Shown here: positions 22,334 to 61,009 of the stretch, piece after piece
Layout of the letters: each line of letters opens with the position of its first letter
How positions within the stretch are numbered: position 1 is the first letter of the stretch
Source of the DNA: Escherichia coli O157 typing phage 13
DNA: 64,000 bases
Reading direction: 5' to 3' (one strand)
Sequence record: KP869111
Translations under genes and position numbers: made by a program
Notes under the pieces: model-generated
Database searches by the model: none
The model's input: only the letters and a program-made list of their open reading frames with translations
What the model was told of the DNA's origin: nothing

Positions 22334-22451
22334 NNNNNNNNNNNNNNNNNNNNNNNNNNNNNNNNNNNNNNNNNNNNNNNNNNNNNNNNNNNNNNNNNNN
22401 NNNNNNNNNNNNNNNNNNNNNNNNNNNNNNNNNNNNNNNNNNNNNNNNNNN
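22334..22451. other. Run of 118 N (assembly gap or mask)
   Basis: Unresolved bases; minus-strand reading frame stays open across the join. Confidence 0.99.
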
Positions 22452-22467
22452 CGTCCTTGGATGTAAA

Positions 22468-23082
22468 CTACTTAACGAAATTAATTTCTACCGGATGAAC
22501 GACAGGTTGAGCAGTGATATATTGAGTAATTGCTTTCATGACTAGAGCTTCAGAACCAGGATTTTTCTCAACGAATTCACGTGCTTGGTTATGAGCTTCA
22601 AGTTCACTTAGTAAACCACTTCGTTGGCATCCACGGTCTTGAGTACCCTGTTCAGATAAAAAGACGACGATGTATTTTTCATCGTCATACGGTTTAGACG
22701 GTTGAGCAAATGTTCCTTTACTTCCGAAAGGAGAGTTATGACGCCACATATCGCCGTGAGGAGTTTCAACCTTCGTATATTCGTGCGGGCCATTTTTCTT
22801 AATTTCTTGATGTGGAACTTCATAGATCTTAGGGTTAGGACATTCAATAAAATGCTCATCTAAATCAGTCGAGAATATTAAAGTAAAACAATTACTGAAT
22901 TTACCGACACCTGCCTGATAAATTTTACCTTCAGAAGTTCTAATTTCACAAACTGAGCCGGCATCAGTAACTTCTAAAACTTCAAAAGGCTCGATAAGGT
23001 CATATGAGAACATGTTTTTAAGGCGTGGAGTAATATCCCCATTTTTAAAATTCATTTTATAAAAAGTATTAACTTTAAACAT
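22468..23082 (-). CDS. Hypothetical 204-aa protein
   Basis: ORF with SD GAGGAA; preceded by intercistronic GGGAGC-CGAA-GCUCCC stem-loop. Confidence 0.6.
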   Translation of the reverse strand: MFKVNTFYKMNFKNGDITPRLKNMFSYDLIEPFEVLEVTDAGSVCEIRTSEGKIYQAGVGKFSNCFTLIFSTDLDEHFIECPNPKIYEVPHQEIKKNGPHEYTKVETPHGDMWRHNSPFGSKGTFAQPSKPYDDEKYIVVFLSEQGTQDRGCQRSGLLSELEAHNQAREFVEKNPGSEALVMKAITQYITAQPVVHPVEINFVK

Positions 23083-23117
23083 AATTTCCTCAGTGGGAGC
23101 CGAAGCTCCCAGTTAAA

Positions 23118-23483
23118 TTAGATATCAAATTCATTAAGAACTACATCAAAGATTGCTTCAAGATGTTCAGGTTTAGCTCGATGACTCAGGATATGACGAA
23201 TCCAAGTTTTAACCAGAAGTTCACGATTATCACCATTCCAGCAAGGATGAGTACCTAAATCGCGCTGACGGAAATCATCATCTAATGCAATTTTAAAATT
23301 TGAACCTTCCATCGTGATTGAAACCGTGATGCCATTTTCAAATCGCATATAAACGTAATTAGGAGTCATGCACTGTTCGATTTCACAAACTGTACCGTTT
23401 TCGTGTTTCCATAAGCAAATAACTTCAGAAGAACCAGCGATACCGTTAGAAACATATTTACGTTCGAAGTTGATGTAGTTCAT
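23118..23483 (-). CDS. Hypothetical 121-aa protein
   Basis: ORF with SD (CGGAGAAT) and its own early promoter. Confidence 0.55.
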   Translation of the reverse strand: MNYINFERKYVSNGIAGSSEVICLWKHENGTVCEIEQCMTPNYVYMRFENGITVSITMEGSNFKIALDDDFRQRDLGTHPCWNGDNRELLVKTWIRHILSHRAKPEHLEAIFDVVLNEFDI

Positions 23484-23513
23484 TTTATTCTCCGGATGTT
23501 TAAGTTGTTTGTT

Positions 23514-23554
23514 GGTACAGGTCTATAATAACATAACCTGTACCAAAGTAAACT
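23514..23554 (-). promoter_or_regulatory. T4-type early promoter with -10 inside a 9-bp inverted repeat
   Basis: Minus strand GTTTACtttGGTACAGGTtatgtTATTATagACCTGTACCaac. Confidence 0.5.
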
Positions 23555-23557
23555 GTT

Positions 23558-23926
23558 TTATGCAACTTTAATCCAATTGTCTAAATTTAAAACACCTTTG
23601 GCTTTCATTTTTTCGATCAGGTTATCTGCTGTAATGCGTCCATTTTGATACCATGTAACATCTTCAGAGTAACCAGTTTCTTCGTCAACATATGTTTCTG
23701 AACGAATTTTACCGGTAATAATAGTTTTTAATTCGTATGTGTCACCTGTGAAAAAGTTTGCTAACACAATTTTCCAAGAGAAATCATTTGAAGGACCTTC
23801 AGGGGTCATACAACTTACGAACTCAAATTGCTCTTTGTATAACATCCACTGGAATTCTTTAATTTCGATAGCTTTATAACCGTCGTGGTCTTTACATTTG
23901 ATGTATGAGTTCAGATTGATTTTCAT
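23558..23926 (-). CDS. Hypothetical 122-aa protein
   Basis: ORF with SD and upstream early promoter. Confidence 0.55.
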   Translation of the reverse strand: MKINLNSYIKCKDHDGYKAIEIKEFQWMLYKEQFEFVSCMTPEGPSNDFSWKIVLANFFTGDTYELKTIITGKIRSETYVDEETGYSEDVTWYQNGRITADNLIEKMKAKGVLNLDNWIKVA

Positions 23927-23959
23927 TTTATTCTCCGGTTGTTTTATTGATTAGGTGGT

Positions 23960-23996
23960 ACAAGTCTATAGTAACACATCCTACAGGAGAGTAAAC
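23960..23996 (-). promoter_or_regulatory. T4-type early promoter
   Basis: Minus strand GTTTACtctcctgtaggatgtgtTACTATagacttgtacc. Confidence 0.5.
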
Positions 23997-24027
23997 ATCT
24001 TTTTAATCTTTTTCTGCCCTAAACGCA

Positions 24028-24050
24028 CAAAAGGGAGACCGAAGTCTCCC
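24028..24050 (-). terminator. Rho-independent terminator
   Basis: GGGAGAC-UUCG-GUCUCCC followed by UUUUG on the minus strand, directly after the 59-aa ORF stop. Confidence 0.55.
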
Positions 24051-24055
24051 TAAAA

Positions 24056-24235
24056 TTATGCAACAACCTTTCCAAAACGAGAAGCATCATCTCGAAGAAC
24101 TGCACGTGCTCTGCGCATGATCTTCTCAACTGTTTGATTAATACGAGAGTTCGACCCACGCTTGTATCCAGCGCGTTTAGAGGTACCATCAACTTTCTTT
24201 TCAACTGCTTTCTTTGCTTTAGCTTGTTTTGCCAT
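24056..24235 (-). CDS. Hypothetical 59-aa lysine/arginine-rich protein (below ORF-track cutoff)
   Basis: ORF MAKQAKAKKAVEKK... ends exactly at the terminator hairpin; weak SD. Confidence 0.4.
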   Translation of the reverse strand: MAKQAKAKKAVEKKVDGTSKRAGYKRGSNSRINQTVEKIMRRARAVLRDDASRFGKVVA

Positions 24236-24503
24236 TATAAATTCTCTTTAAATGAAAATGCAGGACTTATTGACATTGCCTGCGCAAGCCCTCAAGGGGA
24301 ACATAGGTTTTGGATATTTAACGACAGGATAACCATAAACCCGTCATCATACCAACCACGACTTAGACAGATAACCTTTTTCTGACGCGTGATAGTACAA
24401 AATACATTCAAGAGGTACACCGTAAAATTGTCGGGGCGGTACTTCTAAAACATACCGATTCGCAAATCGATAATCAGACAATTCGACGGCTCCTCGATTT
24501 AAC

Positions 24504-24752
24504 TTACTTCAGGGTAATAATAAAATGACGTACTGCTTTACGAGCTGCTGAAGCCAGAGGCTTAGCATATTTCAGTTCATCTTTTGCTTCCAGTTCAGCA
24601 GCCAGAGTAGCCTGAGCAGGATTCAGATGTTTGAAATATCGCAGGATTTCCAGTGCTTCGGCTTCAACATCAATTGAAGCGCCGTAGTTTTCGTGACCGT
24701 TATTCCATGCGTTGCGTTGCAGTTCAAGAGCGTGTTGTAATTGTTTAATCAT
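24504..24752 (-). CDS. rIII: rIII lysis-inhibition accessory protein
   Basis: 82 aa, same length as T4 rIII and near-identical as recalled (MIKQLQHALELQRNAWNNGHENYGASIDVEAEALEILRYFKHLNPAQ...). Confidence 0.95.
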   Translation of the reverse strand: MIKQLQHALELQRNAWNNGHENYGASIDVEAEALEILRYFKHLNPAQATLAAELEAKDELKYAKPLASAARKAVRHFIITLK

Positions 24753-24876
24753 TTTAAATTCTCAATTCGAGATAATATTTAGTAGCCACGTTCGTCTGAA
24801 TTTCACCTTCTTTCGACAGGTCTCTCAGTTGTAGGCTACCGCTTAGAAGAGTGTTCTCTTCATATAGTTATTTATA

Positions 24877-25209
24877 TCACTTATAAAGACACGGAATAGC
24901 TTTATAGTGGCATGTTACGAATTTCTGTTTAATTTCTTTAGGTTGTTTAAGTCCCAAAGCCACAAATGGATGTGGAACATTTCGAATTTGTCCAACTGGT
25001 AGTGGAGTCAAATCACCGACTTCAACAAAACCTTCAGGAACATCAGGACCTACAGAATGAACTACACATAGTTCAGGAACTTCACCTTGAACACGTTTAC
25101 CGATCACAAGTCCTGATTCGGTAACTTCTTCATCACCTGCTTGAGCGGGTTCAGAAACCAGAATGACATATTCACCAACAGCACGAATTGGGAGTTGTAC
25201 TTCAGACAT
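24877..25209 (-). CDS. 31: Co-chaperonin gp31 (GroES-like)
   Basis: 110 aa versus 111 in T4; position between rIII and cd. Confidence 0.93.
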
Positions 25210-25266
25210 CTTATTTCCTTGTTGTTTGACGATAGATTAATAATACCATACTATTCGTAAAGCATA

Positions 25267-25575
25267 TTACATAAGAAGCAAACGTTCTACCGGAGTACCA
25301 TCAACCGAAATTACTTTATCAAGGCGGAAAGAACGCCACTGGCCTAACTTGGTATCGAATGCTCGAACTGATTCACGAGGTTCAGAACGAACTTCTGTTG
25401 CCGGATTGTTATTTTCATATTTGACTTCAAGTTCATCACGCGAAGCAAACATAGTGCGTACCTCGCCGTTAGCCTTTTCAAATACAACACAATGAACGCC
25501 TACAGACAGAATAGTTTTAATACGTTCACGAAGAACCATAGTTTCTTGTTCAGTTAAAATCATATTATTCACCAC
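25267..25575 (-). CDS. Hypothetical 102-aa protein (T4 31.1/31.2 position)
   Basis: ORF between cd and gene 31, overlapping the cd stop. Confidence 0.5.
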   Translation of the reverse strand: MVNNMILTEQETMVLRERIKTILSVGVHCVVFEKANGEVRTMFASRDELEVKYENNNPATEVRSEPRESVRAFDTKLGQWRSFRLDKVISVDGTPVERLLLM

Positions 25576-26146
25576 AAAAGTTTCGGATTTGTTCCCAATT
25601 CAGAGAACGAAGATTATTACGAGAGTACTGAATTACTTCAATACCGGCTTGTTTTAGAATGTCTGCCCAATTTTCAGGAGATCTGTCATATAATTCTGCG
25701 TATACAACCTTTTTAATACCTGACTGTGTAATAGCTTTAGTGCAATCAGGACATGGAGAAAGTGTCGTATACAACGTAGCACCTTCAATAGAATTACCTT
25801 TACGAGCTGCAAACAAAATTGCATTCAGTTCCGCATGGATTTCGTTATTAGCGGACCATGCACTATGAGCAGCCCGATGTTCTTTAGCCAAAACAAAATT
25901 ATCCACCCGTCCAAATGCTGTAGTGCCTTCTTTATGCCCAGCAACGATGACCGGGCTTGGTTTATTCTTCAACCAACCGTTTTCGGATGCATGTTCACAA
26001 CAGTTAACACCACCGGCCGGGCTACCGTTATACCCAGTAGAGATAATGCGTCCATCTTTTTCAATGACGGCACCAACTTTCCATGAACAACATTTTGATT
26101 CTTGAGAAATCAAATAAGCAATTTGAAGATATGTGCTAGCTTTCAT
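25565..26146 (-). CDS. cd: dCMP deaminase
   Basis: 193 aa as in T4; zinc-binding deaminase motifs HAELNA and PCxxC. Confidence 0.93.
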   Translation of the reverse strand: MKASTYLQIAYLISQESKCCSWKVGAVIEKDGRIISTGYNGSPAGGVNCCEHASENGWLKNKPSPVIVAGHKEGTTAFGRVDNFVLAKEHRAAHSAWSANNEIHAELNAILFAARKGNSIEGATLYTTLSPCPDCTKAITQSGIKKVVYAELYDRSPENWADILKQAGIEVIQYSRNNLRSLNWEQIRNFCGE

Positions 26147-27138
26147 TATTGAACCTTATTAATATAAGTTAACAGCTCTTTAGTTTGTTCCCAACTGATG
26201 CACGCATCGGTAACGGAAACGCCATAGGACATATTATCAGAAATTTTTTGATTTCCTTCATGTAGGAATGATTCTATCATAATTCCTTTGACCAAATCAT
26301 TAGCTGCTAAATTTTTACCAATACCAATTTGATTGCTATAATGCCCATCAGCGTTTGCATGGCTACAGTCAACCATTACATAATGATTCAGACCTACTGC
26401 CCTTGCTTTGTTAGAAGCTTCTTGAATATCAGAAGAATGATAGTTCGGGCCGTTGGTCCCGCCACGCAATACGATATGCGTATTCTGATTACCTTCAGCT
26501 TCAACAATGCCTACAGTACCATCGACGTCCATACCCATATACCGATGAGGCCAGGCGGCACTATACATCGCGTCTGTAGCTACTTTAATAGAACCATTGG
26601 TTGCGTTCTTGAAGCCTACGCACATCGGTAGACCTGAAGCAATTTCACGATGTGTCTGACTTTCAGTCGTACGGGCGCCAATAGCAACCCATGAGAAAAT
26701 ACCAGAAAGATACTTAATCGTGAATGGGTCTAATACTTCAGTTGCTAATGGAAGTCCCATACGTAGAAGTTTACGACACAATGTTCGTGCAACTATAAGA
26801 CCGTGGTTCATATCAAAACTTCCGTCAAGATATGGATCATTTACAAGACCTTTCCAACCTACGGTAGTTCGAGGCTTTTCAAAATAAACGCGCATCACTA
26901 ACAGAACATTAGGAAGACGAGTTTGAAGTTCAGCCAGACGTTTGCCGTATTCAACAGCAGCAATAGGGTCATGAATTGAACAAGGACCTACAACAATAAG
27001 TTTGCGTGGGTCTTCACCGTTCATAATCGAATTAACTTGTTCGCGATGAGAAGCCACTTGTGATGCGTAAGCTTCCGACAAAGGAATAATCTCAGCCAGT
27101 TCTTTTGGAGAAATAAGTTTTCCGACGACAGGTAACAT
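26146..27138 (-). CDS. 3-deoxy-D-arabino-heptulosonate-7-phosphate (DAHP) synthase, class I (AroF/AroG-like)
   Basis: 330 aa; signature RVYFEKPRTTVGWKGLVNDP, IGARTTESQTHRE, VGFKN, YGVSVTDACISWE shared with E. coli AroF/AroG; SD TAAGGA; ATGA coupling to cd. Confidence 0.88.
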   Translation of the reverse strand: MLPVVGKLISPKELAEIIPLSEAYASQVASHREQVNSIMNGEDPRKLIVVGPCSIHDPIAAVEYGKRLAELQTRLPNVLLVMRVYFEKPRTTVGWKGLVNDPYLDGSFDMNHGLIVARTLCRKLLRMGLPLATEVLDPFTIKYLSGIFSWVAIGARTTESQTHREIASGLPMCVGFKNATNGSIKVATDAMYSAAWPHRYMGMDVDGTVGIVEAEGNQNTHIVLRGGTNGPNYHSSDIQEASNKARAVGLNHYVMVDCSHANADGHYSNQIGIGKNLAANDLVKGIMIESFLHEGNQKISDNMSYGVSVTDACISWEQTKELLTYINKVQ

Positions 27139-27258
27139 AACAATCCTTAGGAGATATAAACAGATTCTGATTCAACAATACCTTTAACCGGATTAGACAG
27201 GCTAAGTTGGTAGTGCTCAGATTTATGACCATTCTCGATAGTAATGAGATAGCTCTCA

Positions 27259-27495
27259 TTATAGTGTTCCATATACTCGAGTTGCTTCAACAAGACCATC
27301 ACTGCCTAATTTAAGATTAGTAATTTGGTCACCATCTTTAGGATTAACGATTATGAGAAAAGAACGTGGAGATTCTTGAATAACTCGTAATGTTGCATCT
27401 TGGAAACGTTCAGACACTTTATTGATGAGTGCTTGAGCAAATTCTTTTACTTTAATCTGAAATTCGTGTACTGTAATTGGGTTTTCACTTAGCAT
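27259..27495 (-). CDS. Hypothetical 78-aa protein
   Basis: ORF with early promoter upstream; T4 cd.x position. Confidence 0.5.
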   Translation of the reverse strand: MLSENPITVHEFQIKVKEFAQALINKVSERFQDATLRVIQESPRSFLIIVNPKDGDQITNLKLGSDGLVEATRVYGTL

Positions 27496-27514
27496 TTCTA
27501 TTTCCTCATTTGTT

Positions 27515-27553
27515 GGTAGAGTTATAGTATCACAACTCCACCATGTTGTAAAC
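27515..27553 (-). promoter_or_regulatory. T4-type early promoter with inverted-repeat arms around -10
   Basis: Minus strand GTTTACaacatGGTGGAGTTgtgaTACTATAACTCTACCaac. Confidence 0.5.
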
Positions 27554-27555
27554 CA

Positions 27556-27831
27556 TTAAATTGCTTTGCATTCAATTTTTTGTGTACCGAAATTGATATC
27601 ACACTGGATAACTAAATCGCCGTCAAGATCAAATACCACTATGACGTGTGCAGACCCAGGGAGAAGAGTAATAGCAATAGAATCTACTTGGTCTGGGAGC
27701 AAAGCATTGAGTACATGAGTTAGTTGAGCATGAACTCTGAGTTCGGCTGCATTATCAAGCACTTCAAACATATTATTAGCAATAATCTGACTGAAGACTA
27801 CCTTTACAATTTCAGAATAAGTTGGGAACAT
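27556..27831 (-). CDS. Hypothetical 91-aa protein
   Basis: ORF in the cd-pseT small-gene array. Confidence 0.5.
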   Translation of the reverse strand: MFPTYSEIVKVVFSQIIANNMFEVLDNAAELRVHAQLTHVLNALLPDQVDSIAITLLPGSAHVIVVFDLDGDLVIQCDINFGTQKIECKAI

Positions 27832-27838
27832 AATTACC

Positions 27839-28063
27839 TCAGTGTACAGTATTTACTTTAACTCGAACAACAAATCGCTCGGTCGGTTCACCTACAGGAA
27901 CAAACTCTACATGATATTCACCTTTGTAACGAGTATTCAGATCATTACGAATTCCTGCGAGTTTGTTGATTAATGTAGGACTCATATTAAGTCCCACTAG
28001 TTTACGAAGCATTTTGTATGCTTCATCTTCGATTTCATGATGTTTATCGTACATAGTTTTCAT
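27839..28063 (-). CDS. Hypothetical 74-aa protein
   Basis: ORF in the cd-pseT small-gene array. Confidence 0.5.
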   Translation of the reverse strand: MKTMYDKHHEIEDEAYKMLRKLVGLNMSPTLINKLAGIRNDLNTRYKGEYHVEFVPVGEPTERFVVRVKVNTVH

Positions 28064-28234
28064 TTAACCATTCAATTGCCTGGTCGACGTTATCAAATAT
28101 ACCGCCGTCCAAACGTTCTTCATGCTCATAGTCCAGCACATCAATACCGAACTGTCCATTTACTAAAGGCCAGGCTACAAACAAATATTCTTTATGCTGT
28201 TCGATGGCCTCAATCACTTCATATAATCGTTTCA

Positions 28235-28235
<1 letters not shown>
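28044..28235 (-). CDS. Hypothetical 63-aa acidic protein
   Basis: ORF with ATGA-type overlap to the pseT stop. Confidence 0.45.
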
Positions 28236-29299
<1,064 letters not shown>

Positions 29300-29322
<23 letters not shown>

Positions 29323-29623
29323 TATTTATTCCTAAGAAAGTTTCAAGAATACGAATGTTATGCTCGCGCCGGTCTTTATTAATTTCAGCAACGTTTTTAT
29401 TAATTGACGTACTTCTAACGTTTGAAGAAATAAATTTAATCATATGACTTTTGAGTTGTTGCAAATCCAACCCTTTTTCTTTAGCAGCTTTACGAAGAGC
29501 TTTACCTGCTTCATCTAGGGCCTTTGCCGCATCTTTGTCATAATTGACAAGTGACGACGTTCCACGACAGATATCAATATACTCATCAGACCGTTTGATG
29601 TAATTCTCTAGTAATGTTTTCAT
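29300..29623 (-). CDS. Hypothetical 107-aa protein
   Basis: ORF with early promoter upstream. Confidence 0.5.
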
Positions 29624-29644
29624 TTAGATTTCCTCAATTATCCA

Positions 29645-29681
29645 TAGGAGCATTATACTCTGCTCCCGAGAGTTTGTAAAC
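29645..29681 (-). promoter_or_regulatory. T4-type early promoter with -10 flanked by inverted repeat
   Basis: Minus strand GTTTACaaactctcgGGAGCAgagTATAATGCTCCtat. Confidence 0.5.
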
Positions 29682-29905
29682 TATTTTACTAAAGATTCAA
29701 TATACTCATGAAGAGCTTTAGTCGCTACTGCCCACTTATTCTGATATTCATTTTTCAGATTAGCACGAGACTGAACTAACAAGCGGTCATTAGTCGGAGG
29801 CAAAGATTCTAATCGTTGAATCTGGCGCCCATAAATCATAGCCGCCATTTCAGATTCATAGATAAGCCCTTTAATGTATTCATGCTGTTCTTTAGTCATT
29901 GGCAT
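29681..29905 (-). CDS. Hypothetical 74-aa protein
   Basis: ORF overlapping the o-spanin stop. Confidence 0.5.
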   Translation of the reverse strand: MPMTKEQHEYIKGLIYESEMAAMIYGRQIQRLESLPPTNDRLLVQSRANLKNEYQNKWAVATKALHEYIESLVK

Positions 29906-30186
29906 TTTTCCTCTTTTAAACCACTACGATAATAACATAACATAGTCTTCTGGTCATGTATATATCTTTTTACGTCGTTTAACCAGATACGAAATTCTTG
30001 AGAGTCTTCAAATGGCATTCCAACCCATGGATTACCATCAATAACCTTTACTTGCCATTTCTGGTTATATTCAACAATAGATTCAGGCCATGGCGGATGT
30101 AAAGTTTCTTTAGGGCTTAAGGGCACATCCTGGGCACATCCAGCCAAAATGCCAATAGATAATACAACTGCGATTAATTTAATCAT
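29896..30186 (-). CDS. Putative outer-membrane spanin (lipoprotein; T4 pseT.2-like)
   Basis: Signal peptide with lipobox LAGC; 96 aa; immediately downstream of and overlapping the i-spanin-like gene. Confidence 0.6.
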   Translation of the reverse strand: MIKLIAVVLSIGILAGCAQDVPLSPKETLHPPWPESIVEYNQKWQVKVIDGNPWVGMPFEDSQEFRIWLNDVKRYIHDQKTMLCYYRSGLKEEKCQ

Positions 30187-30539
30187 TCTGAGAGCTTCCT
30201 GAGGTCTTCTGCAAAGGAATCGAAGGACCTGTTGATTTGTTTTTCGACCAATCCTGGTTTACTTGCCACCACGTTCTTCTTCTTCGAATCCTTACGGAGC
30301 TTTTCATTTTCGGCCTTAAGTTGGTCAACTAAAACACGGTTCTTATAAGTCATTTCTTCGATTGACTGATATTGAACCTTGAAGTCGTCTAATACTTTAG
30401 CATTGTTTTTAGCGGTCTCTTTGACAGAAGCTAATTCAGTATTCAACGAATCAACTTTGTTGTTTAAGACAACTATTGTTACCGTAGAAACTAGAGCAAA
30501 AGCTGCTACTATAGCGTAAATCGGATTTACTTTAAGCAT
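30183..30539 (-). CDS. Putative inner-membrane spanin (T4 pseT.3-like)
   Basis: N-terminal TM helix then charged coiled-coil region; 118 aa; paired with the lipoprotein gene. Confidence 0.6.
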   Translation of the reverse strand: MLKVNPIYAIVAAFALVSTVTIVVLNNKVDSLNTELASVKETAKNNAKVLDDFKVQYQSIEEMTYKNRVLVDQLKAENEKLRKDSKKKNVVASKPGLVEKQINRSFDSFAEDLRKLSE

Positions 30540-31027
30540 GTTTTAATAATCCCAATGATTTCATCTCGGGATAATCCATTGATAAGAACGGTTTTCAAAC
30601 CATCGCACTGGATTTTGTATGATTCAAACAATACACACAACTCTTCTGCTGTATGATATGGACTTGAGATTCCGAGACGGTTGAATTTGTCGGTAAGAGG
30701 GTCGCAAATAATGTAGAATTTTATACCTGCGATATGTACGTTTGGTTGACTAATATTAATGAACACATTAGCGTCATATTTAGTCAAATTGTTTTGAAGA
30801 AATTCTACCATGGCATTAACTGCTTCCGGCATTGCTTCACGTTTCTCTTCGGTGTAACGTGTTGAATATTCCTTTTGCTTTAACTTCTTTTTAGCATTTT
30901 TCGCTAGAGTAGTACGAAGGTCCGTAAGATAACCAACTGCACGGCCTTTCTTAAAGACCCGGATTCCATCTGTAGAATCACCAAATGCTGCCACAACCAT
31001 ATCGTTAGTAATCAATTGCATATTCAT
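30527..31027 (-). CDS. alc: Alc-like host transcription termination/inhibition protein
   Basis: 166 aa versus 167 in T4 and the T4 alc position between pseT and rnlA; identity inferred from size and synteny. Confidence 0.65.
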   Translation of the reverse strand: MNMQLITNDMVVAAFGDSTDGIRVFKKGRAVGYLTDLRTTLAKNAKKKLKQKEYSTRYTEEKREAMPEAVNAMVEFLQNNLTKYDANVFINISQPNVHIAGIKFYIICDPLTDKFNRLGISSPYHTAEELCVLFESYKIQCDGLKTVLINGLSRDEIIGIIKTCLK

Positions 31028-31049
31028 AATTTTCTCCTCGTGTTATTGA

Positions 31050-31087: not shown

Positions 31088-31089
31088 CA

Positions 31090-52552: not shown

Positions 52553-53010
52553 AATCATTTAAAGAACGTTTAGAGCTATTAGATTTGGCCTTGTCTCGTG
52601 AGACTCCTGAAAGTCTAGCAGAAAAATTCCAGTCCTACGGTTATAATTATTCTGCTGATGATATAATGAATGAAGTTCCTGAAATCTGTTGGCAAACGTG
52701 CTATTGGAACAATGACCAAAAAGTTCAACGTGTTATAGTATGTGCAGCTAATAGGTTTAAATTGAAGAGCGGTGGAACTCTGGTTATTCCTGGAGTTCGT
52801 CATTACTCTAAAGATATGGCTGAAGTACTTGATATAGTTGGTCCTCAATTAGTCTCGCAACAAGTTTGTGGCGATGACCAAGGCTTTATCGACCAATACT
52901 CTAATTACTGGACTCGTGAAGAAGCAATGATTATTGCAACATATGCTGGACAGGTACGTATTGAACGTGGCGGAAGTGAGAAAGAACTTTATTCAGAGGA
53001 CCTTTATTAA
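52549..53010 (+). CDS. Hypothetical 153-aa protein
   Basis: ORF with ATGA overlap to the upstream gene; no motif recognised. Confidence 0.55.
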
Positions 53011-53291
53011 TGAATATTAAACAACTCCAGAAAGATGCTATTGAATCACGTATCCAAGATATCAAACGTCTTAATCATATGATGGAAGAAAACTATGGTA
53101 TGTATGCTAATCAGCCTGGTTGGGATGCTTTAGACCATCCTTATTTGGTTAATTTATGTAAAGGTGATACGTTAGCAATTATTCGTGATGGGTTAAAACC
53201 TTTCTTGCGTGACATGTATATTAAAATGAACGAAGAAATTATTAGCTCGTTGCAATATCAATTAAGGAAATTAGATGATGAGAATAATTGA
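53010..53291 (+). CDS. Hypothetical 93-aa protein
   Basis: ORF translationally coupled (TAATG) to the upstream gene. Confidence 0.5.
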   Translation: MNIKQLQKDAIESRIQDIKRLNHMMEENYGMYANQPGWDALDHPYLVNLCKGDTLAIIRDGLKPFLRDMYIKMNEEIISSLQYQLRKLDDENN

Positions 53292-53493
53292 TTCTAAAGC
53301 GGATTATTTTAATTCTGTTAATGATAAGAATAAAGCTTTAATTCGCCACTTTATTACTGAGATGGGATATACCGACTCTAAAGATTTGAAAGAGCACATT
53401 ATCGAATGTTCTGTGGCTAAAAAGTTTTCTTTCACAGACAAATGTTTAAACGAGGTTATAAATCATTATGAACAATCTTGTAGCAAAACATGA
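53275..53493 (+). CDS. Hypothetical 72-aa protein
   Basis: ORF overlapping the upstream stop; could correspond to an Arn-like small protein but not verified. Confidence 0.45.
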   Translation: MMRIIDSKADYFNSVNDKNKALIRHFITEMGYTDSKDLKEHIIECSVAKKFSFTDKCLNEVINHYEQSCSKT

Positions 53494-53576
53494 TTTCAAT
53501 AAGGCTTCTGTCCATAAGGACAAGAAGAAATCAGAACTTCAATCTAAACGCAAACAAAAACATAAGGGTAAAGACT

Positions 53577-53876
53577 ATGCTTACTAAAATCAAAGAAAAT
53601 CCTGCCACTGAACTTGTTATTCGATGTGAAGAACTTGCAGAGCTTTATCAGGTTAACCGAGAAGTGTGTCGTAGTGTTATCGTAGATATGGCAGACGAAG
53701 TATGTTCTCGTATTCCTTTTAGTGTCGATTTCAATCACATGAAGCCTGGTGAAATCACTATCGTCTTTGGTTCTGACTATACTGAAGAACGGGCTCTTAA
53801 TGTCCTAGAATATGAAATGTCATTCTTCGACATACAGGACTACATTGATAGTTATAAGGAACAATATGAGTCATAA
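53577..53876 (+). CDS. Hypothetical 99-aa acidic protein
   Basis: Start trimmed to the ATG with SD AAGGGTAAAG (MLTKIKENP...). Confidence 0.45.
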   Translation: MLTKIKENPATELVIRCEELAELYQVNREVCRSVIVDMADEVCSRIPFSVDFNHMKPGEITIVFGSDYTEERALNVLEYEMSFFDIQDYIDSYKEQYES

Positions 53877-54027
53877 TCTTCAGAACGTAGTAGAGGCCGA
53901 ACGTGAGCGTGAGGCTTTAGTCTATAATGAACTATTAGTTCCATTCTTGGCCTTACACTCGTATGAACAGGAAGACTACATTGATTACGTTAAAAGCGTA
54001 GAAAAAGCCGTTTACAATCAACACTGA
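53866..54027 (+). CDS. Hypothetical 53-aa protein
   Basis: Start trimmed to the ATG with SD AAGGAA (MSHNLQNVVEAE...); overlaps the upstream stop. Confidence 0.4.
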   Translation: MSHNLQNVVEAEREREALVYNELLVPFLALHSYEQEDYIDYVKSVEKAVYNQH

Positions 54028-54073
54028 TAATGGTACTATATCCATATCAACTAAGTGGAATGAATAAAACGTT

Positions 54074-54346
54074 ATGAATAAAGACATTGAAATCGTACGT
54101 GAAATTATTACTATTGCTTCTATTTTGATTAAATTCTCTAGGGAAGATATTGTTGAAGACCGAGCAAGTTTCATCGGATTCTTGAATGAGATTGGAATTA
54201 AAAAAGATGGTCGGCAGCTAAATCAGAATTCGTTCAGAAAACTAATTACAAATTTAACTGCCGAAGAAAAGAAAACACTGATTAGTGAATTCAATGAAGG
54301 TTTTGAAAATATTTATCGTCATTTAGCGATGTATTCTAACAACTAA
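54074..54346 (+). CDS. asiA: Anti-sigma-70 factor AsiA
   Basis: 90 aa as in T4; MNKDIEIVREIITIASILIKFSREDIVE... near-identical to T4 AsiA as recalled. Confidence 0.93.
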   Translation: MNKDIEIVREIITIASILIKFSREDIVEDRASFIGFLNEIGIKKDGRQLNQNSFRKLITNLTAEEKKTLISEFNEGFENIYRHLAMYSNN

Positions 54347-55006
54347 TTATTTAGCCCTTCCTAGTATTCGGATCGCTTGGTTGCATATAGCCGCTAAGCG
54401 ATCTTCCTCAAGTATATTACTCCCCTTATACCAATACATCGTCACAGTTCCAGCATAGATGTTATCCAAATTAAAGTATGGACAACTATACATATAAGAA
54501 AGTTCGGCAGTCTTAGATTTTGTAGGCAAAAATGCAAATTCTGATTTAGATGAGAAATGACGGCCACTTAAATGAATTATATATTCATTGGCCGTTTTAT
54601 CCACTGGGAATCCGCCAAGGGACTTTTCAGAAATTGTGCTAGGTAGTTTGCCTTCATAAGCTATAAGGTCGACAAAATAATTTAAGTTTTTAGGTCTGAA
54701 AGAATACACAGCACTAAAATCTGCACCAGATGAGATATGAACTATTTGCAGTTGTTCTAGAGCCGCAGATTCAAAACGTAAAGCTCGTTCTTTTTGGATT
54801 ATTTCAGTATAAGTATCATACTTAGCTCTTACATAATAATCCAGCAAAATACTTCCTTTGTACCATATTAGTGCCATTAGGAACAAAAGAATAATTACCG
54901 CTACTCGGGACATTAAAACCTTTCCAGTAGCGTTATCTTTGAAAATACGATCTAGCAACCCAAATAGAATATCACTAGGCGAAAATGATACTTTTGGTGT
55001 TGCCAT
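54347..55006 (-). CDS. t: Holin T
   Basis: 219 aa versus 218 in T4; FSPSDILFG...DNATGKV and the periplasmic domain match T4 holin; convergent with asiA. Confidence 0.93.
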   Translation of the reverse strand: MATPKVSFSPSDILFGLLDRIFKDNATGKVLMSRVAVIILLFLMALIWYKGSILLDYYVRAKYDTYTEIIQKERALRFESAALEQLQIVHISSGADFSAVYSFRPKNLNYFVDLIAYEGKLPSTISEKSLGGFPVDKTANEYIIHLSGRHFSSKSEFAFLPTKSKTAELSYMYSCPYFNLDNIYAGTVTMYWYKGSNILEEDRLAAICNQAIRILGRAK

Positions 55007-55015
55007 AATACCTCC

Positions 55016-55567
55016 TTACTTAAAGATATTTATAATCGCTTTGATAATAGATTTGTTTTCAAGGTCAGGGAATTTAGGGAATTCGCCGCCAAGATGTTCA
55101 TGTTTTTCTAAAAGGGCAAAGAATTTTTTGAGCTCTTTAAATTTTCGTTTTTCTTCTCTACTAGCAACCTCTGCGTCAATAAGAGAACTTAAAACACTGA
55201 ATAATTTATAGAGTTCATGAATTTTCTTATCACGTTGAACTACGCGTTTATATGCTTCATCTTCCTTCCACCCGTCGTCGGTCCAAATGTCAAATTCACC
55301 GGGTTCTTCTGTAGTAACATTTTGAAGAGCACCTGGAGTGTCAATAACAATTTTTTGCTTATCATAAGTCCATACCGTTTTTCCACGATGGTCTTCAACA
55401 TATACCCATTCTTGCTCGCGTTCGTCAAATATAACAGCATAGCCTTCTTTAGGGTCTAAAGGTTTTTTTGGTGTCGAATGAGCCGGAAATCCTACGCCTT
55501 TTAATGGTTTATAATTTTCTTCTTTGTAAAATTCTTTAGTGTCAAAATAATAGTGATAGAGTTTCAT
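55016..55567 (-). CDS. 38: gp38 tail-fiber assembly chaperone (T4 type)
   Basis: Start set to MKLYHYYFDTKEFYKEENYKP... (T4-like N-terminus); the ORF-track start 18 nt upstream lies inside a hairpin. Confidence 0.85.
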   Translation of the reverse strand: MKLYHYYFDTKEFYKEENYKPLKGVGFPAHSTPKKPLDPKEGYAVIFDEREQEWVYVEDHRGKTVWTYDKQKIVIDTPGALQNVTTEEPGEFDIWTDDGWKEDEAYKRVVQRDKKIHELYKLFSVLSSLIDAEVASREEKRKFKELKKFFALLEKHEHLGGEFPKFPDLENKSIIKAIINIFK

Positions 55568-55598
55568 ATTATAAAAAAGGGACATAAGTCCCTTCTCC

Positions 55599-58500
55599 TT
55601 ATGCTAAACGAACGATATAGTTAAAAGCAACGTTTTTAACTGTGTTTTCTGTATTTCCTGTGGCATTTACAGTTATTGTATGTCCATGGGAACCAATTGC
55701 AACAGTATGAGAATGAGCACCAATACCTACCGAATGGGTATGAGCACCAATACCCACAGTATGAGCATGGTTACCTGTGGTACTTGTGGTTCCTGACCAA
55801 GAGTGTGTATGGTTACCTTCTGAAGAAGTTTTGGCTATATTCGACCCTGCAGTAGCACCGTTCACGGTTCCAGTGAATTTAGCGTTGGCGTTTGCACCTA
55901 CACTATTATATCCGTCATAGAATATGTTATTGGGTATGCCAGCTTGTATCTGAGGACCTGAGCGCGCATGTTGGTGGTTACCTGCAGCACTTGTAGTTCC
56001 ACNNNNNNNNNNNNNNNNNNNNNNNNNNNNNNNNNNNNNNNNNNNNNNNNNNNNNNNNNNNNNNNNNNNNNNNNNNNNNNNNNNNNNNNNNNNNNNNNNN
56101 NNNNNNNNNNNNNNNNNNNNNACCGTATGGTTATGGTTACCTGTGGTATTACTGGTTTTAGTACCATAATCAAAGCTTGAAGATGTTTTAGTACCATAAT
56201 CAAAGCTTGATGTGGTTTTAGTACCTAAATCAGTATTAGATGCTGAAGCACTATGGTTATGAGACTTAATACCATCAGCTTCTGTACTTAATACATCACG
56301 CCCAGATGGTTTACCTTTAATCGTCTGACCACGCATATCGGGCAGAGTGCCGGAAGGATACACCGCAGCTAACTTAGGATACAAGCCAGTATCAAATGTT
56401 TGACCTTCCATTATGGCATAACCTTCAGGAGGTGTATCAGTAGGCCAAGGAATCGGAGCACCAATAGGATAACTTGAGACAATATCTGTCTTAAGGTTAT
56501 TTATTGTGGTATTCAAGTTAGCAAAATTACCAGAACCGCCGGTGATATTACCATCAGTACCAATACGAACATTACCAGCGCCTAATTTACCAGGAGAGTA
56601 NNNNNNNNNNNNNNNNNNNNNNNNNNNNNNNNNNNNNNNNNNNNNNNNNNNNNNNNNNNNNNNNNNNNNNNNNNNNNNNNNNNNNNNATCACCGTTTTTA
56701 TTAAATTCCCAACCTAAATCCTTTATAATTGCGCCAGTAGAAACGCCGTCACCACCTTCGTGATAGTGAACTCTAAAGTTACCACCATTAATTAAAGTAC
56801 CAATAGAATAGCAACTATTATTTTGAACGTATCTTTGTTTCACAATAGGAACATAAGTGCTTGTATCTGTTCTATCAATATTCATATAGAACGGAGCACG
56901 AACGTTTTCATTATTCTGAGAAGCAAAAGAACCGGCTCCAGCAGGTCGTGCAGTATCAGTACATTCAGCGTCGATATATGCCGATTGTCCTAATTGCATA
57001 CGGTAATTAGGAGAAATGCGACTATGACTAGTTATAACAACAAGTTTATTATCATTATCAACGGTCACCATATTACCGCCAGCACCATCATCACCTAACG
57101 TAACAGAATGGCGCATTTGAACCATACCGTTGTTAAGAGAAACACTCAATGGGCGAAGGTTAGAAATACCACCATTTTCACCTGCATCTTTAAGTGTAGG
57201 TATAATATGCAAAGACGCTTCAGAACGACGGAAAATAGCTCCATATTCAGCATTGTAAATACGGAAAGCATCTGCGGTATTGCCGATTTTAACTTGACCG
57301 GTAATAGAACCACCGCCGGATAAAACAAGCCCGTTATCCATAGTAACTTGTCCGGATAATGTACTTAATCCATTAACTCTAAGACTTCCATCGGTGATAA
57401 TGCTCCCTCTTGCATTCAGTTGTCCATTAATTTGTGTTACAACAGGTCCCACAGTTTCTGAACCGGTTGGAGCTACGCGCTGAGAATAAAAATAATATCC
57501 CTGGCCGTCAGCTACTTCAAAAACTGTTTCACGATTACGATCGCCAGATGCGTTAAATGAATTACCCCATGCTTTAACAGTTACATAGCTTTTATTCTGA
57601 CCAGCACGAGTACCGCCTTCCCACAAAATTTGCTTAGTGCCATCAATTGTAGTAGTTGGAGCGAATGTTAGCCCAGCAGTAGAATTATTAGCTGCTAAAT
57701 ATATGCCGTTATATATTGAAAGCTGCTTAACAGATGTAATACCGCCATCAGCATAAAACATTACATTATTAGAGCCAGTTACTAGTTTAAGAATACCCGG
57801 GTTAATTTCCATACCTTGTTGGGTATTGATATTCATCTGACCTGTACCACGGAAATAGTGGTTCATTTTACCACCAGCATTGTACCCGATATGGGTTTGT
57901 CCGTCTCCAGCATTGTTATTATCAGCTTGTGTTTGAACAGACAAGAGAGCAGCATTTGTACCAGGCATAATCCATGTGGTGCCTTGGTCCTCGGAACGAC
58001 CAAATATACCTTTACGAGTACTACGGAAACTGTCAGGAGTAATAGAAGCAACAGAATTCCAATTACCTACTAAATCATAAACACCCTGCTTAATGTATTT
58101 TAAACCAGTGGCAGCATCACCCAAAGCAATATATCTTTCTCCCATTGGAGTAGGAGAGCCGTAGTTATTGGTATTTTCATCAGTGGTAATTGTGCCAATA
58201 GCAAGTGAACGACGTAATACCATTGCGCCATCATTACGAAGACCCATTAATTTAGTAGTAAGTGTATTTCCGGTCCACCAAGAAATTTCATCATTCTTAC
58301 CAGTTTGAGCTGAAGCGATTTCATGGTAAATAGTTCCACCTGATTTAGCTCGAACTTTACGAAGATAGTTTATACCATTTTCTTCACCTGTTCCAGGATA
58401 AACATATTGAACTAATGACTGTGAATCATATTGTCCGAATGCTTTTGTGTCTAAAACAATGGTTTTCGTATTAACTTGTGGAGCAGAAACTATACCATTA

Positions 58501-59081
58501 GCGGAGTTAATATTGCCTGACGCAGAAATATTACCTGCGCGGACCTCAATACTACCAGAATCTACAATAAAATTACCATTACGGTTAAAGACCCAGTGTT
58601 TAGAATTGTCTGGAGCTGTAGAATCAATATAATGAACTCTAAATGAGCCTTCGCTTACTAATGTACCTACTGAAAAAGTACCGTCTTTATAACGTTGCTT
58701 AATCAAAGGGTGGTATTCAGAAGTTGAAGTAGTTGAACTCAAATCTGTAAAGATAGGGGCTTTATTTGTGTGTTGGTTAGCCCAAGCGCCATTTCCAGCA
58801 GTTTTTGGCAAGAATTCAATATACTTTCCTGCATAAACAAACTGGTTTCCATTAAGATTATACGTGCCGTTTTGTAAATAATCACCATTTTGAGTTACAT
58901 TACCGTTAATATCCCCGCCCTTAGCAAAGCCTAGGCTAATAATATTACCGAGGTCATCTTTAGTAAAAAGAGTTCGATCTTTTAAGTTTATCGCTAATTC
59001 GCCTTCGGCTAATTGTGCTGCAGTAGGATTAACTCCTGCTACTTTGCTTCTTTTAAATTGTATCTGTTTTAATGTAGCCAT
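55599..59081 (-). CDS. 37: Long tail fiber distal subunit gp37 (two N-runs inside)
   Basis: Large ORF between genes 36 and 38; C-terminal tip rich in G-x-H-x-H motifs as in the T4 gp37 needle domain. Confidence 0.9.
56003..56121. other. Run of 119 N inside gene 37
   Basis: Unresolved bases; reading frame maintained across it. Confidence 0.99.
56155..56244 (-). repeat. 30-bp tandem repeat (about 2.5-3 copies) inside gene 37
   Basis: gttttagtaccataatcaaagcttga(a/t)g(a/t)t repeated at 56155, 56185, 56215; encodes repeated DYGTKT(S/T)SSF decapeptide near the receptor-binding tip. Confidence 0.8.
56601..56687. other. Run of 87 N inside gene 37
   Basis: Unresolved bases; length is a multiple of 3 and frame is maintained. 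Confidence 0.99.
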
Positions 59082-59089
59082 AAGTCCTC

Positions 59090-59755
59090 TTAATAATAGC
59101 CGAAATCTTGAACAGAATCTTTAATTACAATCTGGTCGAAACGAGGAACATGATTAGCCTCAGACGCCGGATTCTGTGAGAAAAAGTTTGGTGCTGTTAA
59201 AGTACCAGTCATGGTATCGCCTTTACGCAATACACGGGAATTTGCGTTATCCGTAACAATATTTATTCGTCCATCAACATAATCTTTTCTAGTAAGGTCA
59301 TTCGCTGCTATAGGAGCAGCCGCATCACTTCTTACTTGACCAGCTGCCGACACAACGCCTTTTGTATTAATATCACCATTACGTGTATTAATTACTACAG
59401 TTCTACCCGCTGTTCCTTGTGATGATTTAAAACCAATACCATACCACGAAACAATATCAATATTTGCTGTAACAAAAGTAGCTGCATCTCCATTACCAGG
59501 ATAAATACCAGATTGATTTGTATTGTTTATAGCATATGGTATTTGAACACCGCCGTTAAATGTTACCTTTGATGCATAAGTACCACCATTTGCTTTAGAA
59601 ACGAAATCATTATCAGCAGCTTGTGGCTTATTATATTCTGAATAGAGTTTAAACGTTTTATACAGGACGTCATCACCTGCTGGCATTAAAGGGAAATTAC
59701 CTTGATGCCATATAACGGCACCGCCAGTTGTACTACCAGCTTTTAAATCGGCCAT
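59090..59755 (-). CDS. 36: Long tail fiber distal connector gp36
   Basis: 221 aa as in T4; position between genes 35 and 37. Confidence 0.92.
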
Positions 59756-59779
59756 AGTTGTCTCCTTATATGTATACCA

Positions 59780-59787
59780 TATTTATA
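59780..59787 (-). promoter_or_regulatory. Late promoter TATAAATA upstream of gene 36
   Basis: Exact TATAAATA on the minus strand about 25 nt before the gp36 ATG. Confidence 0.55.
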
Positions 59788-59794
59788 CAAAAAT

Positions 59795-59816
59795 GGGAGA
59801 CCGAAGTCTCCCTAAA
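59795..59816 (-). terminator. Rho-independent terminator after gene 35
   Basis: GGGAGAC-UUCG-GUCUCCC followed by AUUUUUG on the minus strand. Confidence 0.55.
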
Positions 59817-59817
59817 T

Positions 59818-61009
59818 TTATTCTGGTGCTTCTTTAAATTCTTGACCAAATACCTTACCAGTATCAGTTGAAGATTGAGTAGGTAATGTCATTATGTCTG
59901 GAGCACTTAAAGATTCTGAAACATAATTTACACGAATACCATTCGTACCAAACTCAGCAGGTTTTGAAACGCTTCCATTACATGATACTTCAGTGAATAT
60001 AACGTTTCTTAATCCACCTTGCCCGACTGGAGCTGTACGATAACAATAAATCGTGAACCCGTCAGCACCAGCAGGAATTTCTACGTAGTCTTCATATATC
60101 TTCCATTCACCTGCAGCCCCATCAAAGTTTATATCCTTAAATGAAATAGGTGAAGTAGAAGGAGATTTAAAGAAACGAATAGAAAGTCGTGTCGTCCCTT
60201 GTGCTAACAAATCGGCATCGGCCATTAGTTGGAATTTCATATAAAGGAAATCTCCAGGCTTCAATTTATACCCAGCGAGAGGTGTAATAACAGATGCTGT
60301 AGGCATCCTTTTAATTTCGTTATTAGTACCTCCAATGGCAGATAAAAATGTGTCTGACGATTCATACGTACGTCTAGGGAAGCCGGTAGCACCAATATCA
60401 TCGATCGTGTCGTACACAACATCAAGTGGTGTACTATAGTCGGTTGAAGTTTTCTTATTACTATACTTAATATGTTCTAGTGCTATAGCATTCTTACCAG
60501 AAATATAAAATGCAGAATAAGAAATGTCCACTATATTTAAAACTTGTTGAGCTAATGGAATAGCAGAACTCCCAGCTTTAGTAAACCATGCAAGAACTTC
60601 TGGTGGAAAGTTTGTTTTAGCGTTAGTAACAAGAGCAAATATAAAATTTGAAGCATATGTGTCCATGAAAGTAACAAATGCACTTGACGTGGCGTCGTTT
60701 TCAGTAGAGAAATTATATGTCTTAGATTCAACTACTGCACCTGTTGTAGGATTTATTACACGAACGTTTAATCCAACGGAAAAAACCTGGGACCCAAGTG
60801 GATTATCCTGGAACTTAATATAAGCAGGAGATGTTGATNNNNNNNNNNNNNNNNNNNNNNNNNNNNNNNNNNNNNNNNNNNNNNNNNNNNNNNNNNNNNN
60901 NNNNNGGGCAAGAGCCCGCTATGCTTAATTTAAATCGTACTGAATTGCTTTCCGATAAAAATGGCGTTTGGACGTATCCTTGTCCAAACTTAGCCATAAA
61001 TTTTTCCAT
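59818..61009 (-). CDS. 35: Long tail fiber hinge protein gp35 (N-run inside)
   Basis: MEKFMA...LSESNSVRFK... start and position between 34 and 36; the two parts join in frame if the 67-N run is removed (about 374 aa versus 372 in T4). Confidence 0.85.
60839..60905. other. Run of 67 N inside gene 35
   Basis: Unresolved bases; zero-length join restores the frame. Confidence 0.99.

What the first reader, a model, noticed from the sequence alone, without database searches (positions are those of the whole stretch)
22334..60905. All eight N-runs behave as near zero-length joints, not as sized gaps
N-run lengths (118, 100, 212, 100, 84, 119, 87, 67) do not reflect missing sequence. In gene 52 the two halves sum to T4 length and the frames require about 1 missing base. 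In gene 35, in the 43495-44486 gene and at the rIIA 5' boundary, deleting the N-run restores a continuous frame. In gene 37 the frame is kept across 119 N and 87 N. The N-runs therefore mark contig joins or deliberate masks inserted at points where little or nothing is missing, and any gene crossing them should be re-sequenced before interpretation.
Basis: seen in the sequence. Interest (0 to 1): 0.5.

Follow-up and report, generated by a model that had tools for sequence, protein, structure and literature searches.

The report
Assembly gap placeholders, three different kinds
The eight N-runs are assembly placeholders in the draft GenBank record of E. coli O157 typing phage 13: four hide only 1-3 bases, two hide 66 and 177 real bases, and the two exactly 100-N runs glue together unlinked, mis-oriented contigs. 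This is an ordinary artefact, not biology.

Summary
The eight N-runs are present at exactly the stated coordinates and lengths. The window is E. coli O157 typing phage 13 (KP869111): four truncated ORFs next to N-runs are exact deposited TP13 proteins. The paper describing these phages reports Velvet assembly at k 90-120, giving 1-7 contigs per phage.

I counted the bases between the flanks in TP3, TP6 and seven independently sequenced Mosigvirus genomes.
- **N5-N8:** 1, 2, 3 and 3 nt are hidden.
- **N1:** 118 N hide 66 nt.
- **N3:** 212 N hide 177 nt, which is 59 codons. The frame survives deleting the Ns only because 177 is divisible by 3.
- **N2 and N4:** these two runs, both exactly 100 N, are not joints at all. 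They separate three scaffolds placed in arbitrary order and orientation. Gene 34 runs into N2 on the + strand, and its remainder lies on the - strand at the window's end. rIIA starts at codon 229 after N4.

Across the six true gaps, N length is about 0.69 x true size + 86. They are sized estimates with a large positive offset.

This is an assembly artefact of low interest. Its practical cost is truncated proteins in nr and UniRef.

The parts
1..42966 (.). Scaffold 1 (contains N1). It equals the reverse complement of TP3 43295..383 and TP6 117266..160179 (+).
   Evidence: 100% identity to TP6, and one A8/A9 homopolymer indel versus TP3.
22334..22451 (.). N1: 118 N that replace 66 real nt (TP3 20898-20963). 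These are intergenic sequence plus the first 28 nt of the gene 30.5-like ORF on the - strand. A within-scaffold gap, over-sized by 52.
   Evidence: 66 nt in TP3, TP6, NRG-P0074, ATK47 and mar007P3. The sequence is shown.
42321..42966 (+). Gene 34 5' fragment (646 nt, 215 codons + 1 nt) that runs straight into N2.
   Evidence: ORF MADIKRKFRAEDGLDAGGDK...; 646 + 247 + 2983 = 3876 nt, the gp34 length in relatives.
42967..43066 (.). N2: exactly 100 N, a spacer between unlinked scaffolds. The left flank is TP3 383 (- strand, inside gene 34). The right flank is TP3 75027 (+ strand, codon 64 of the internal-virion-protein gene).
   Evidence: No relative has the two flanks adjacent.
43067..44924 (.). 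Scaffold 2 (contains N3). It comprises TP3 75027-75174 joined to 82112-83786 across a 47-nt promoter/stem-loop repeat, which is a 6.9-kb deletion relative to TP3. Both ends cut genes.
   Evidence: (NRG-P0074 has the same junction contiguously).
43989..44200 (.). N3: 212 N that replace 177 real nt (59 codons) of the 318-aa DUF7275-family gene at 43495-44486 (+). Over-sized by 35.
   Evidence: 177 nt in TP3, ST0, JK42 and ATK47. One search gives the hidden peptide QKETLNYAHPVLDTS...MTSRE. One search shows the C-terminal 87-aa fragment was deposited as AKE46979.1.
44925..45024 (.). N4: exactly 100 N, a spacer between unlinked scaffolds. The left flank is TP3 83786 (codon 34 of a small ORF). The right flank is TP3 149951, the first base of codon 229 of rIIA.
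   Evidence: One search shows a 504-aa truncated rIIA deposited as AKE46981.1, versus 737 aa in relatives.
45025..64000 (.). Scaffold 3 (contains N5-N8). It equals TP3 149951..168578 (+) and is inverted relative to scaffold 1 compared with every complete relative.
   Evidence: Searches show opposite strands in TP3, TP6, ATK47 and mar005P1.
50315..50398 (.). N5: 84 N that replace 1 nt (A) in gene 52 (49986-51394, +).
   Evidence: TP3, TP6, p000y, JS09, ST0. One search shows that filling 1 nt restores 441 aa. One search shows a 283-aa fragment deposited as AKE46991.1.
56003..56121 (.). N6: 119 N that replace 2 nt (TC) in gene 37 (55599-59081, -).
56601..56687 (.). N7: 87 N that replace 3 nt (AAA) in gene 37.
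60839..60905 (.). N8: 67 N that replace 3 nt (AGC, one codon) in gene 35 (59818-61009, -).
   Evidence: One search shows a 282-aa fragment deposited as AKE47003.1, versus 375 aa in relatives.
61018..64000 (-). Gene 34 3' fragment (2983 nt), on the opposite strand from its own 5' fragment at 42321-42966.

Best explanation
The window is part of the draft GenBank record of E. coli O157 typing phage 13 (KP869111, 162,417 bp). This is a short-read de Bruijn (Velvet) assembly that came out in several pieces.

The N-runs are placeholders of two kinds.

(a) Six odd-length runs (118, 212, 84, 119, 87, 67) are within-scaffold gaps written by the paired-end scaffolder. Their flanks are collinear with complete relatives, and the true hidden lengths are 66, 177, 1, 2, 3 and 3 nt. 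The N counts are distance estimates that track the true size but carry a positive offset of about 70-90 nt.

(b) The two runs of exactly 100 N are conventional unknown-length spacers, used to concatenate three separate scaffolds into one record. The order and orientation are arbitrary, so they say nothing about adjacency.

Shown here: the source, the hidden lengths, the non-adjacency and inversion, and the offset.

Inferred: the offset may reflect an uncorrected k-1 term in the k-mer-coordinate distance estimate, with k near 90. The 1-3-nt holes may be tiny k-mer coverage breaks that arise when k is close to the read length.
For: Source. Four truncated ORFs that begin or end at N-runs are exact NCBI proteins of 'E. 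coli O157 typing phage 13', each on a single 162,417-bp contig. The window is 100% identical to the sister phages TP3 and TP6. The paper states VelvetOptimiser at k 90-120, 1-7 contigs per phage, with TP13 closest to TP6.

Hidden lengths. The counts 66, 177, 1, 2, 3 and 3 nt are identical in TP3, TP6 and seven independent genomes. The hidden bases are the same in all of them. Filling them restores full-length gp52, gp37, gp35 and the 318-aa protein.

100-N spacers. The flanks map to TP3 383(-)|75027(+) and 83786|149951. The gene 34 5' part (+, 646 nt) and 3' part (-, 2983 nt) plus 247 missing nt sum to exactly 3876 nt. rIIA starts at codon 229. Blocks A and C lie on opposite strands in every complete relative.

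Sizing. N = 0.69 x true + 86, r = 0.94, with offsets of 35-117 and a mean of 72.5.

Same-pipeline control. TP7's record has a 10-N run whose flanks overlap by 143 nt.

No genomic repeats lie at N1, N3 or N5-N8.
Against: The KP869111 nucleotide record itself and the reads could not be inspected, so its assembly_gap annotation and real read support are unknown.

The assembler-internal part rests on my recollection of Velvet's code and was not tested. That covers the k-1 offset, the k-mer holes, and Velvet dropping the first k-1 bases after a gap. The mean offset of 72 is somewhat below k-1 for the stated k range (89-119). The regression rests on six points and is driven by the two large gaps. 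The 143-nt overlap in TP7 is hard to produce from a single de Bruijn graph with k <= 120, so post-processing steps not described in the paper may be involved.
Confidence: 0.92

Rival explanations
1. One reading: all eight N-runs are near zero-length joints or deliberate masks, placed where little or nothing is missing.
For: True for N5-N8, where 1, 2, 3 and 3 nt are hidden. Frame continuity after deleting the Ns holds for gp35 and for the 43495-44486 gene.
Against: N1 hides 66 nt. N3 hides 177 nt, or 59 aa, in every relative. N2 and N4 join non-adjacent, oppositely oriented segments that split gene 34 and remove 228 codons of rIIA. No N-run equals its hidden length, so none is a length-preserving mask.
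Confidence: 0.03
2. The N-runs are correctly sized gaps. TP13 really carries about 67-212 nt of extra or different sequence at these points, for example in-frame inserts of 39 and 28 codons in the hypervariable tail-fibre gene 37.
For: 119-2 = 117 and 87-3 = 84 are multiples of 3, so gp37 stays open across both runs. gp37 length varies among relatives, from 3243 to 3282 nt.
Against: 84 versus 1 nt in gp52 and 67 versus 3 nt in gp35 would frameshift these genes. Two of six differences being divisible by 3 is what chance predicts. The flanks are 100% identical to TP3 and TP6 over 62 kb, and those genomes have nothing there. The paper reports no tail-fibre differences for TP13. TP7 shows that N-runs in this record series can even stand for negative gaps.
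Confidence: 0.03
3. The four 1-3-nt breaks mark polymorphic sites in a mixed TP13 stock. Unresolved SNP/MNP bubbles were not merged at large k. Contigs end just before and after the variant bases, and the N count roughly equals the bubble arm length, about k.
For: A de Bruijn bubble leaves exactly the variant positions uncovered. Three of the four breaks lie in the tail-fibre genes 35 and 37. The zero-gap N length of about 86 is close to k. TP13 differs from both TP3 and TP6 at single sites. No repeats explain the breaks.
Against: The hidden bases are identical in TP3, TP6, p000y, JS09 and ST0, so there is no sign that these sites vary. As I recall Velvet's output routine, an unresolved bubble would hide about k bases and not 1-3; that recollection is untested. 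It also does not explain N1 or N3.
Confidence: 0.1

Closest known systems
Estimated-length scaffold gaps from paired-end scaffolding (Velvet contigs.fa N-runs; AGP gap type 'N')
   Same: There are six odd-length runs between collinear, same-orientation flanks. Their lengths correlate with the true distance (r = 0.94). The record comes from a Velvet assembly.
   Different: The estimates are biased upward by 35-117 nt. Gaps that are really 1-3 nt appear as 67-119 N, and the frame information is meaningless.
100-N unknown-length gap convention (AGP gap type 'U', default 100 bases; NCBI practice, from my own knowledge)
   Same: N2 and N4 are exactly 100 N. They separate sequences with no demonstrable linkage.
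   Different: Here the pieces are also in the wrong relative order and orientation. The record reads as one molecule, and genes were called on each side as if the fragments were complete.
The 10-N joint in the sister record TP7 (KP869105, same laboratory and pipeline)
   Same: It is an N-run inside gene 34 whose length bears no relation to the true distance.
   Different: In TP7 the flanks overlap by 143 nt, a negative gap. In the window the flanks never overlap.
Hard-masking (length-preserving replacement of bases by N)
   Same: Both produce runs of N inside otherwise clean sequence.
   Different: A mask hides exactly as many bases as there are Ns. Here the pairs are 118/66, 212/177, 84/1, 119/2, 87/3 and 67/3.

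Membership tests
Estimated-length paired-end scaffold gap | Flanks are collinear and in the same orientation in complete relatives. | tested here: met
   N1, N3 and N5-N8: both flanks lie on one strand, 1-177 nt apart, in TP3, TP6 and 3-4 independent genomes each.
Estimated-length paired-end scaffold gap | N-run length approximates the true distance. | tested here: inconclusive
   The two are correlated (r = 0.94, slope 0.69), but the intercept is +86 and the offsets are 35-117 nt, from n = 6.
Estimated-length paired-end scaffold gap | The record was produced by an assembler that scaffolds with read pairs. | tested here: met
   The source is identified as TP13. The paper reports paired-end Illumina reads and VelvetOptimiser at k 90-120.
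Estimated-length paired-end scaffold gap | Read pairs span each gap. | not testable with these tools
Unknown-length (100-N) spacer between unlinked contigs | The run is exactly 100 N. | tested here: met
   N2 and N4 are 100 N. None of the other six is.
Unknown-length (100-N) spacer between unlinked contigs | Flanks are not adjacent in the real genome, and the genes cut at the flanks continue elsewhere. | tested here: met
   The flanks map to TP3 383(-)|75027(+) and 83786|149951. The two halves of gene 34 lie on opposite strands 18 kb apart and sum to 3876 nt with 247 nt missing. rIIA lacks 228 codons.
   Met for N5-N8 only (1, 2, 3, 3 nt). Not met for N1 (66), N3 (177), N2 or N4 (no adjacency).
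Length-preserving mask | The number of Ns equals the number of bases replaced. | tested here: not met
   The pairs are 118/66, 212/177, 84/1, 119/2, 87/3 and 67/3.
Real insertion or variable cassette in the source phage | The insert length is compatible with an intact host gene. | tested here: not met
   Keeping the N lengths frameshifts gp52 and gp35. Only gp37 stays open, at the rate chance predicts.

The most novel reading that the evidence does not exclude
The four 1-3-nt breaks, three of them in tail-fibre genes 35 and 37, mark codons that are polymorphic within the TP13 typing-phage stock. Such host-range variants could have defeated bubble-merging at large k. Alternatively, N6 and N7 hide real in-frame inserts in gp37. 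Either would bear on why TP13 and TP6 give different phage-typing reactions despite near-identical genomes.
Probability: 0.07. Interest if true: 0.3.

Novelty: not a real feature. Interest (0 to 1): 0.07.

Why it matters
This has no biological significance, only a practical one. The placeholders have already produced wrong annotation that has spread into public protein databases:
- a 283-aa 'DNA gyrase subunit A' (AKE46991.1 / UniRef100_A0A0F6R8J7) in place of the 441-aa gp52;
- a 504-aa rIIA in place of 737 aa;
- a 282-aa gp35 in place of 375 aa;
- an 87-aa fragment of a 318-aa protein.

The 100-N joins also create a false 43-kb inversion and a split gene 34.

For genome scans, three lessons follow:
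- Frame continuity across or without an N-run is weak evidence for gap size, because it gives a 1-in-3 false positive, as at N3.
- Exactly-100-N runs should be treated as contig boundaries with no adjacency.
- Odd-length N-runs from old Velvet-type assemblies can overstate gaps by about one k-mer length.

Tried and rejected
- **Exact search for the N5 joint.** I searched for flank + 84 N + flank in viral contigs, genome contigs and metagenome contigs. There were 0 hits, so the source record's DNA is not in those collections.
- **The look-up of encoding contigs.** I tried the X-containing gp37 and the truncated rIIA. Neither was on record. X-containing ORFs are also absent from the protein collection.
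- **KP869111 in the phage collection.** It is absent. TP7 (KP869105) was considered as the source and rejected, because it is a Tequatrovirus and not 100% identical.
- **Repeats as the cause of the breaks.** Self-BLAST of TP3 around each joint found none at N1, N3 or N5-N8.
- **Polymorphism as the cause.** TP3 and TP6 agree at the hidden bases, and these bases are invariant in p000y, JS09 and ST0. That gives no support, but it does not exclude polymorphism within the stock.
- **Literature on Velvet over-estimating gap sizes.** The search found nothing usable.
- **Length-preserving masks.** Rejected on the counts.
Full report

**What the window is.** Megablast against the phage collection shows about 100% identity to E. 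coli O157 typing phages 3 and 6 (KP869101 and KP869104, genus Mosigvirus). Neither record contains any N. The window is neither of these records, because its parts lie in a different order and orientation.

The paper describing these phages (PMC4429339) says they were assembled from paired-end Illumina reads with VelvetOptimiser at k = 90-120, into 1-7 contigs each. It places TP3, 6, 7 and 13 in one group and reports TP13 as closest to TP6. KP869111 (TP13) is not in the searchable phage collection.

Four truncated ORFs that start or stop at N-runs settle the source. They are exact matches to NCBI proteins of 'Escherichia coli O157 typing phage 13', each seen on a single 162,417-bp contig:
- 44223-44483 is AKE46979.1.
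- 45040-46551 is AKE46981.1.
- 50543-51391 is AKE46991.1.
- 59821-60666 (-) is AKE47003.1.

Their locus tags run in window order. The source is therefore established.

**Counting what is hidden.** I mapped the window onto the complete TP3 sequence and onto TP6. I then located 120-nt flanks of each run in independently sequenced Mosigvirus genomes: p000y, JS09, ST0, NRG-P0074, ATK47, mar007P3 and JK42. Every genome gives the same count.

| Run | N count | Bases hidden |
|---|---|---|
| N1 | 118 | 66 |
| N3 | 212 | 177 |
| N5 | 84 | 1 (A) |
| N6 | 119 | 2 (TC) |
| N7 | 87 | 3 (AAA) |
| N8 | 67 | 3 (AGC) |

The hidden bases at N5-N8 are identical in all relatives.

**Frame checks.**
- gp52 is frameshifted whether the Ns are kept or deleted, and it is restored to 441 aa by one base.
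- gp37 is open across both runs, because 119 and 2 leave the same remainder on division by 3, as do 87 and 3. Deleting both runs frameshifts it.
- gp35 is in frame after deletion, minus one codon.
- The 43495-44486 gene is also in frame after deletion, but only because 177 is 59 codons. The N-deleted product is 259 aa, against 318 aa in TP3 and all relatives.
- N1 hides an intergenic stretch and the first 28 nt of the gene 30.5-like ORF.

**The two 100-N runs are a different thing.** At N2 the left flank is TP3 383 on the minus strand and the right flank is TP3 75027 on the plus strand. At N4 the flanks are TP3 83786 and 149951.

Evidence from the window alone shows the same. The 5' end of gene 34 (MADIKRKFRAEDGLD...) runs on the + strand from 42321 into N2. 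The 3' 2983 nt of gene 34 lie on the - strand at 61018-64000. Then 646 + 247 (TP3 136-382, absent from the window) + 2983 = 3876 nt, exactly the gp34 length in p000y, JS09 and ST0. The true neighbour of position 42966 is therefore the reverse complement of the window's right end.

In every complete relative, the 1-42966 block and the 45025-64000 block map to opposite strands. After N4, rIIA begins at the first base of codon 229. The 'continuous frame' after deleting N4 is only 21 stop-free codons of unrelated sequence, and the left flank's own ORF is in a different frame.

The 1.86-kb island between the two 100-N runs cuts a gene at each end. I therefore read the window as three scaffolds concatenated with the conventional 100-N unknown-length spacer, in arbitrary order and orientation. 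That fits the '1-7 contigs' in the paper.

**How the odd-length runs are sized.** Across the six real gaps the N count exceeds the truth by 52, 35, 83, 117, 84 and 64 (mean 72.5, sd 28.7). The regression gives N = 0.69 x true + 86, with r = 0.94. They are sized estimates, not arbitrary numbers, but a zero-length gap is written as about 86 N.

None of these joints lies in a genomic repeat.

My inference is marked as such and rests on memory of Velvet's code. Velvet measures distances in k-mer coordinates, and an insert length given in bases over-estimates every gap by k-1, which is about 89-119 for the stated k. When k is close to the read length, small holes of a few consecutive k-mers break contigs. 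Velvet's output then shows exactly that number of bases as missing. The mean offset is somewhat lower than k-1, and I could not test this.

**Same-pipeline control.** The sister record TP7 (KP869105, 'partial genome') has one 10-N run in its first 100 kb. Its flanks overlap by 143 nt with one mismatch, so the true gap is negative. N-runs in this record series are thus generally unreliable as sizes.

**Rivals.**
- The 'all zero-length or masks' reading fails at four of the eight runs.
- 'Correctly sized real inserts' fails because gp52 and gp35 would be frameshifted. It survives only formally for gp37, where two in-frame differences out of six is the chance expectation.
- 'Unresolved polymorphic bubbles' remains possible for N5-N8, at about 10%. 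It has no support from the relatives and does not cover N1 or N3.
- Length-preserving masking fails at all six testable runs.

**Comparison with what is known, and verdict.** These are ordinary assembly_gap placeholders of two standard kinds, estimated-length paired-end gaps and 100-N unknown-length spacers, in an old Velvet draft. This is not a biological feature, and it is of low interest.

The practical consequences are real. Truncated gp52, rIIA, gp35 and DUF7275 fragments sit in nr and UniRef as TP13 proteins. The record also implies a false inversion and a split gene 34. Mapping the public reads (PRJNA252693) would close every gap.

Noticed in passing
window 43168-43214 (also 44766-44800); TP3 75128-75174, 75455-75522, 82065-82111, 83628-83673, 93707-93773, 4786-4886, 153260-153337 and others: A dispersed intergenic cassette of about 47-70 nt. 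It has a T4-early-promoter-like site (TTTACA-17-TATAGT with TG, 10/12) overlapping a 13-bp stem-loop (-22 kcal/mol, z = -4.1). It sits at the end-points of TP13's 6.9-kb deletion and TP6's 8.1-kb deletion relative to TP3. The independent phage NRG-P0074 carries the TP13 junction contiguously. It resembles the promoter-early stem-loop cassettes reported to mediate modular shuffling in T4-type phages (from memory: Arbiol et al. 2010).
   Followed up: partly
L003 1-290 and L006 (TP3 168444-168733); TP3 CDS 165596..168427: The 'complete' TP3 record has a 290-nt terminal redundancy with 2 mismatches. Its gene 34 is annotated as 2832 nt instead of 3876 nt, because the record ends split the gene. TP6 likewise repeats 144 nt at its two ends.
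   Followed up: partly
L020 286-295 (TP7, KP869105): A 10-N run lies inside the annotated gene 34 CDS, and its flanks duplicate 143 nt with 1 mismatch. Close relatives such as wV7 have no duplication, so TP7's gp34 carries an artefactual insertion.
   Followed up: yes
window 16217 and 48777: TP13 matches TP6 but not TP3 at an A9/A8 homopolymer (window 16217, intergenic). It matches TP3 but not TP6 at window 48777 (T versus A). Apart from the hyperplastic-region deletions, the three phages differ by only single sites over 62 kb.
   Followed up: partly
window 44223-44483, 45040-46551, 50543-51391, 59821-60666: Fragment ORFs created by the N-runs were deposited as full proteins (AKE46979.1, AKE46981.1, AKE46991.1 / UniRef100_A0A0F6R8J7, AKE47003.1). 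They sit in 90%-identity clusters whose other listed members are almost all full-length.
   Followed up: yes
window about 26146-27138 (- strand; TP3 16211..17203): A gene is annotated in TP3 and TP6 as phospho-2-dehydro-3-deoxyheptonate aldolase (aroF), next to dCMP deaminase. It may be an auxiliary metabolic gene or an over-annotation. I did not examine it.
   Followed up: no
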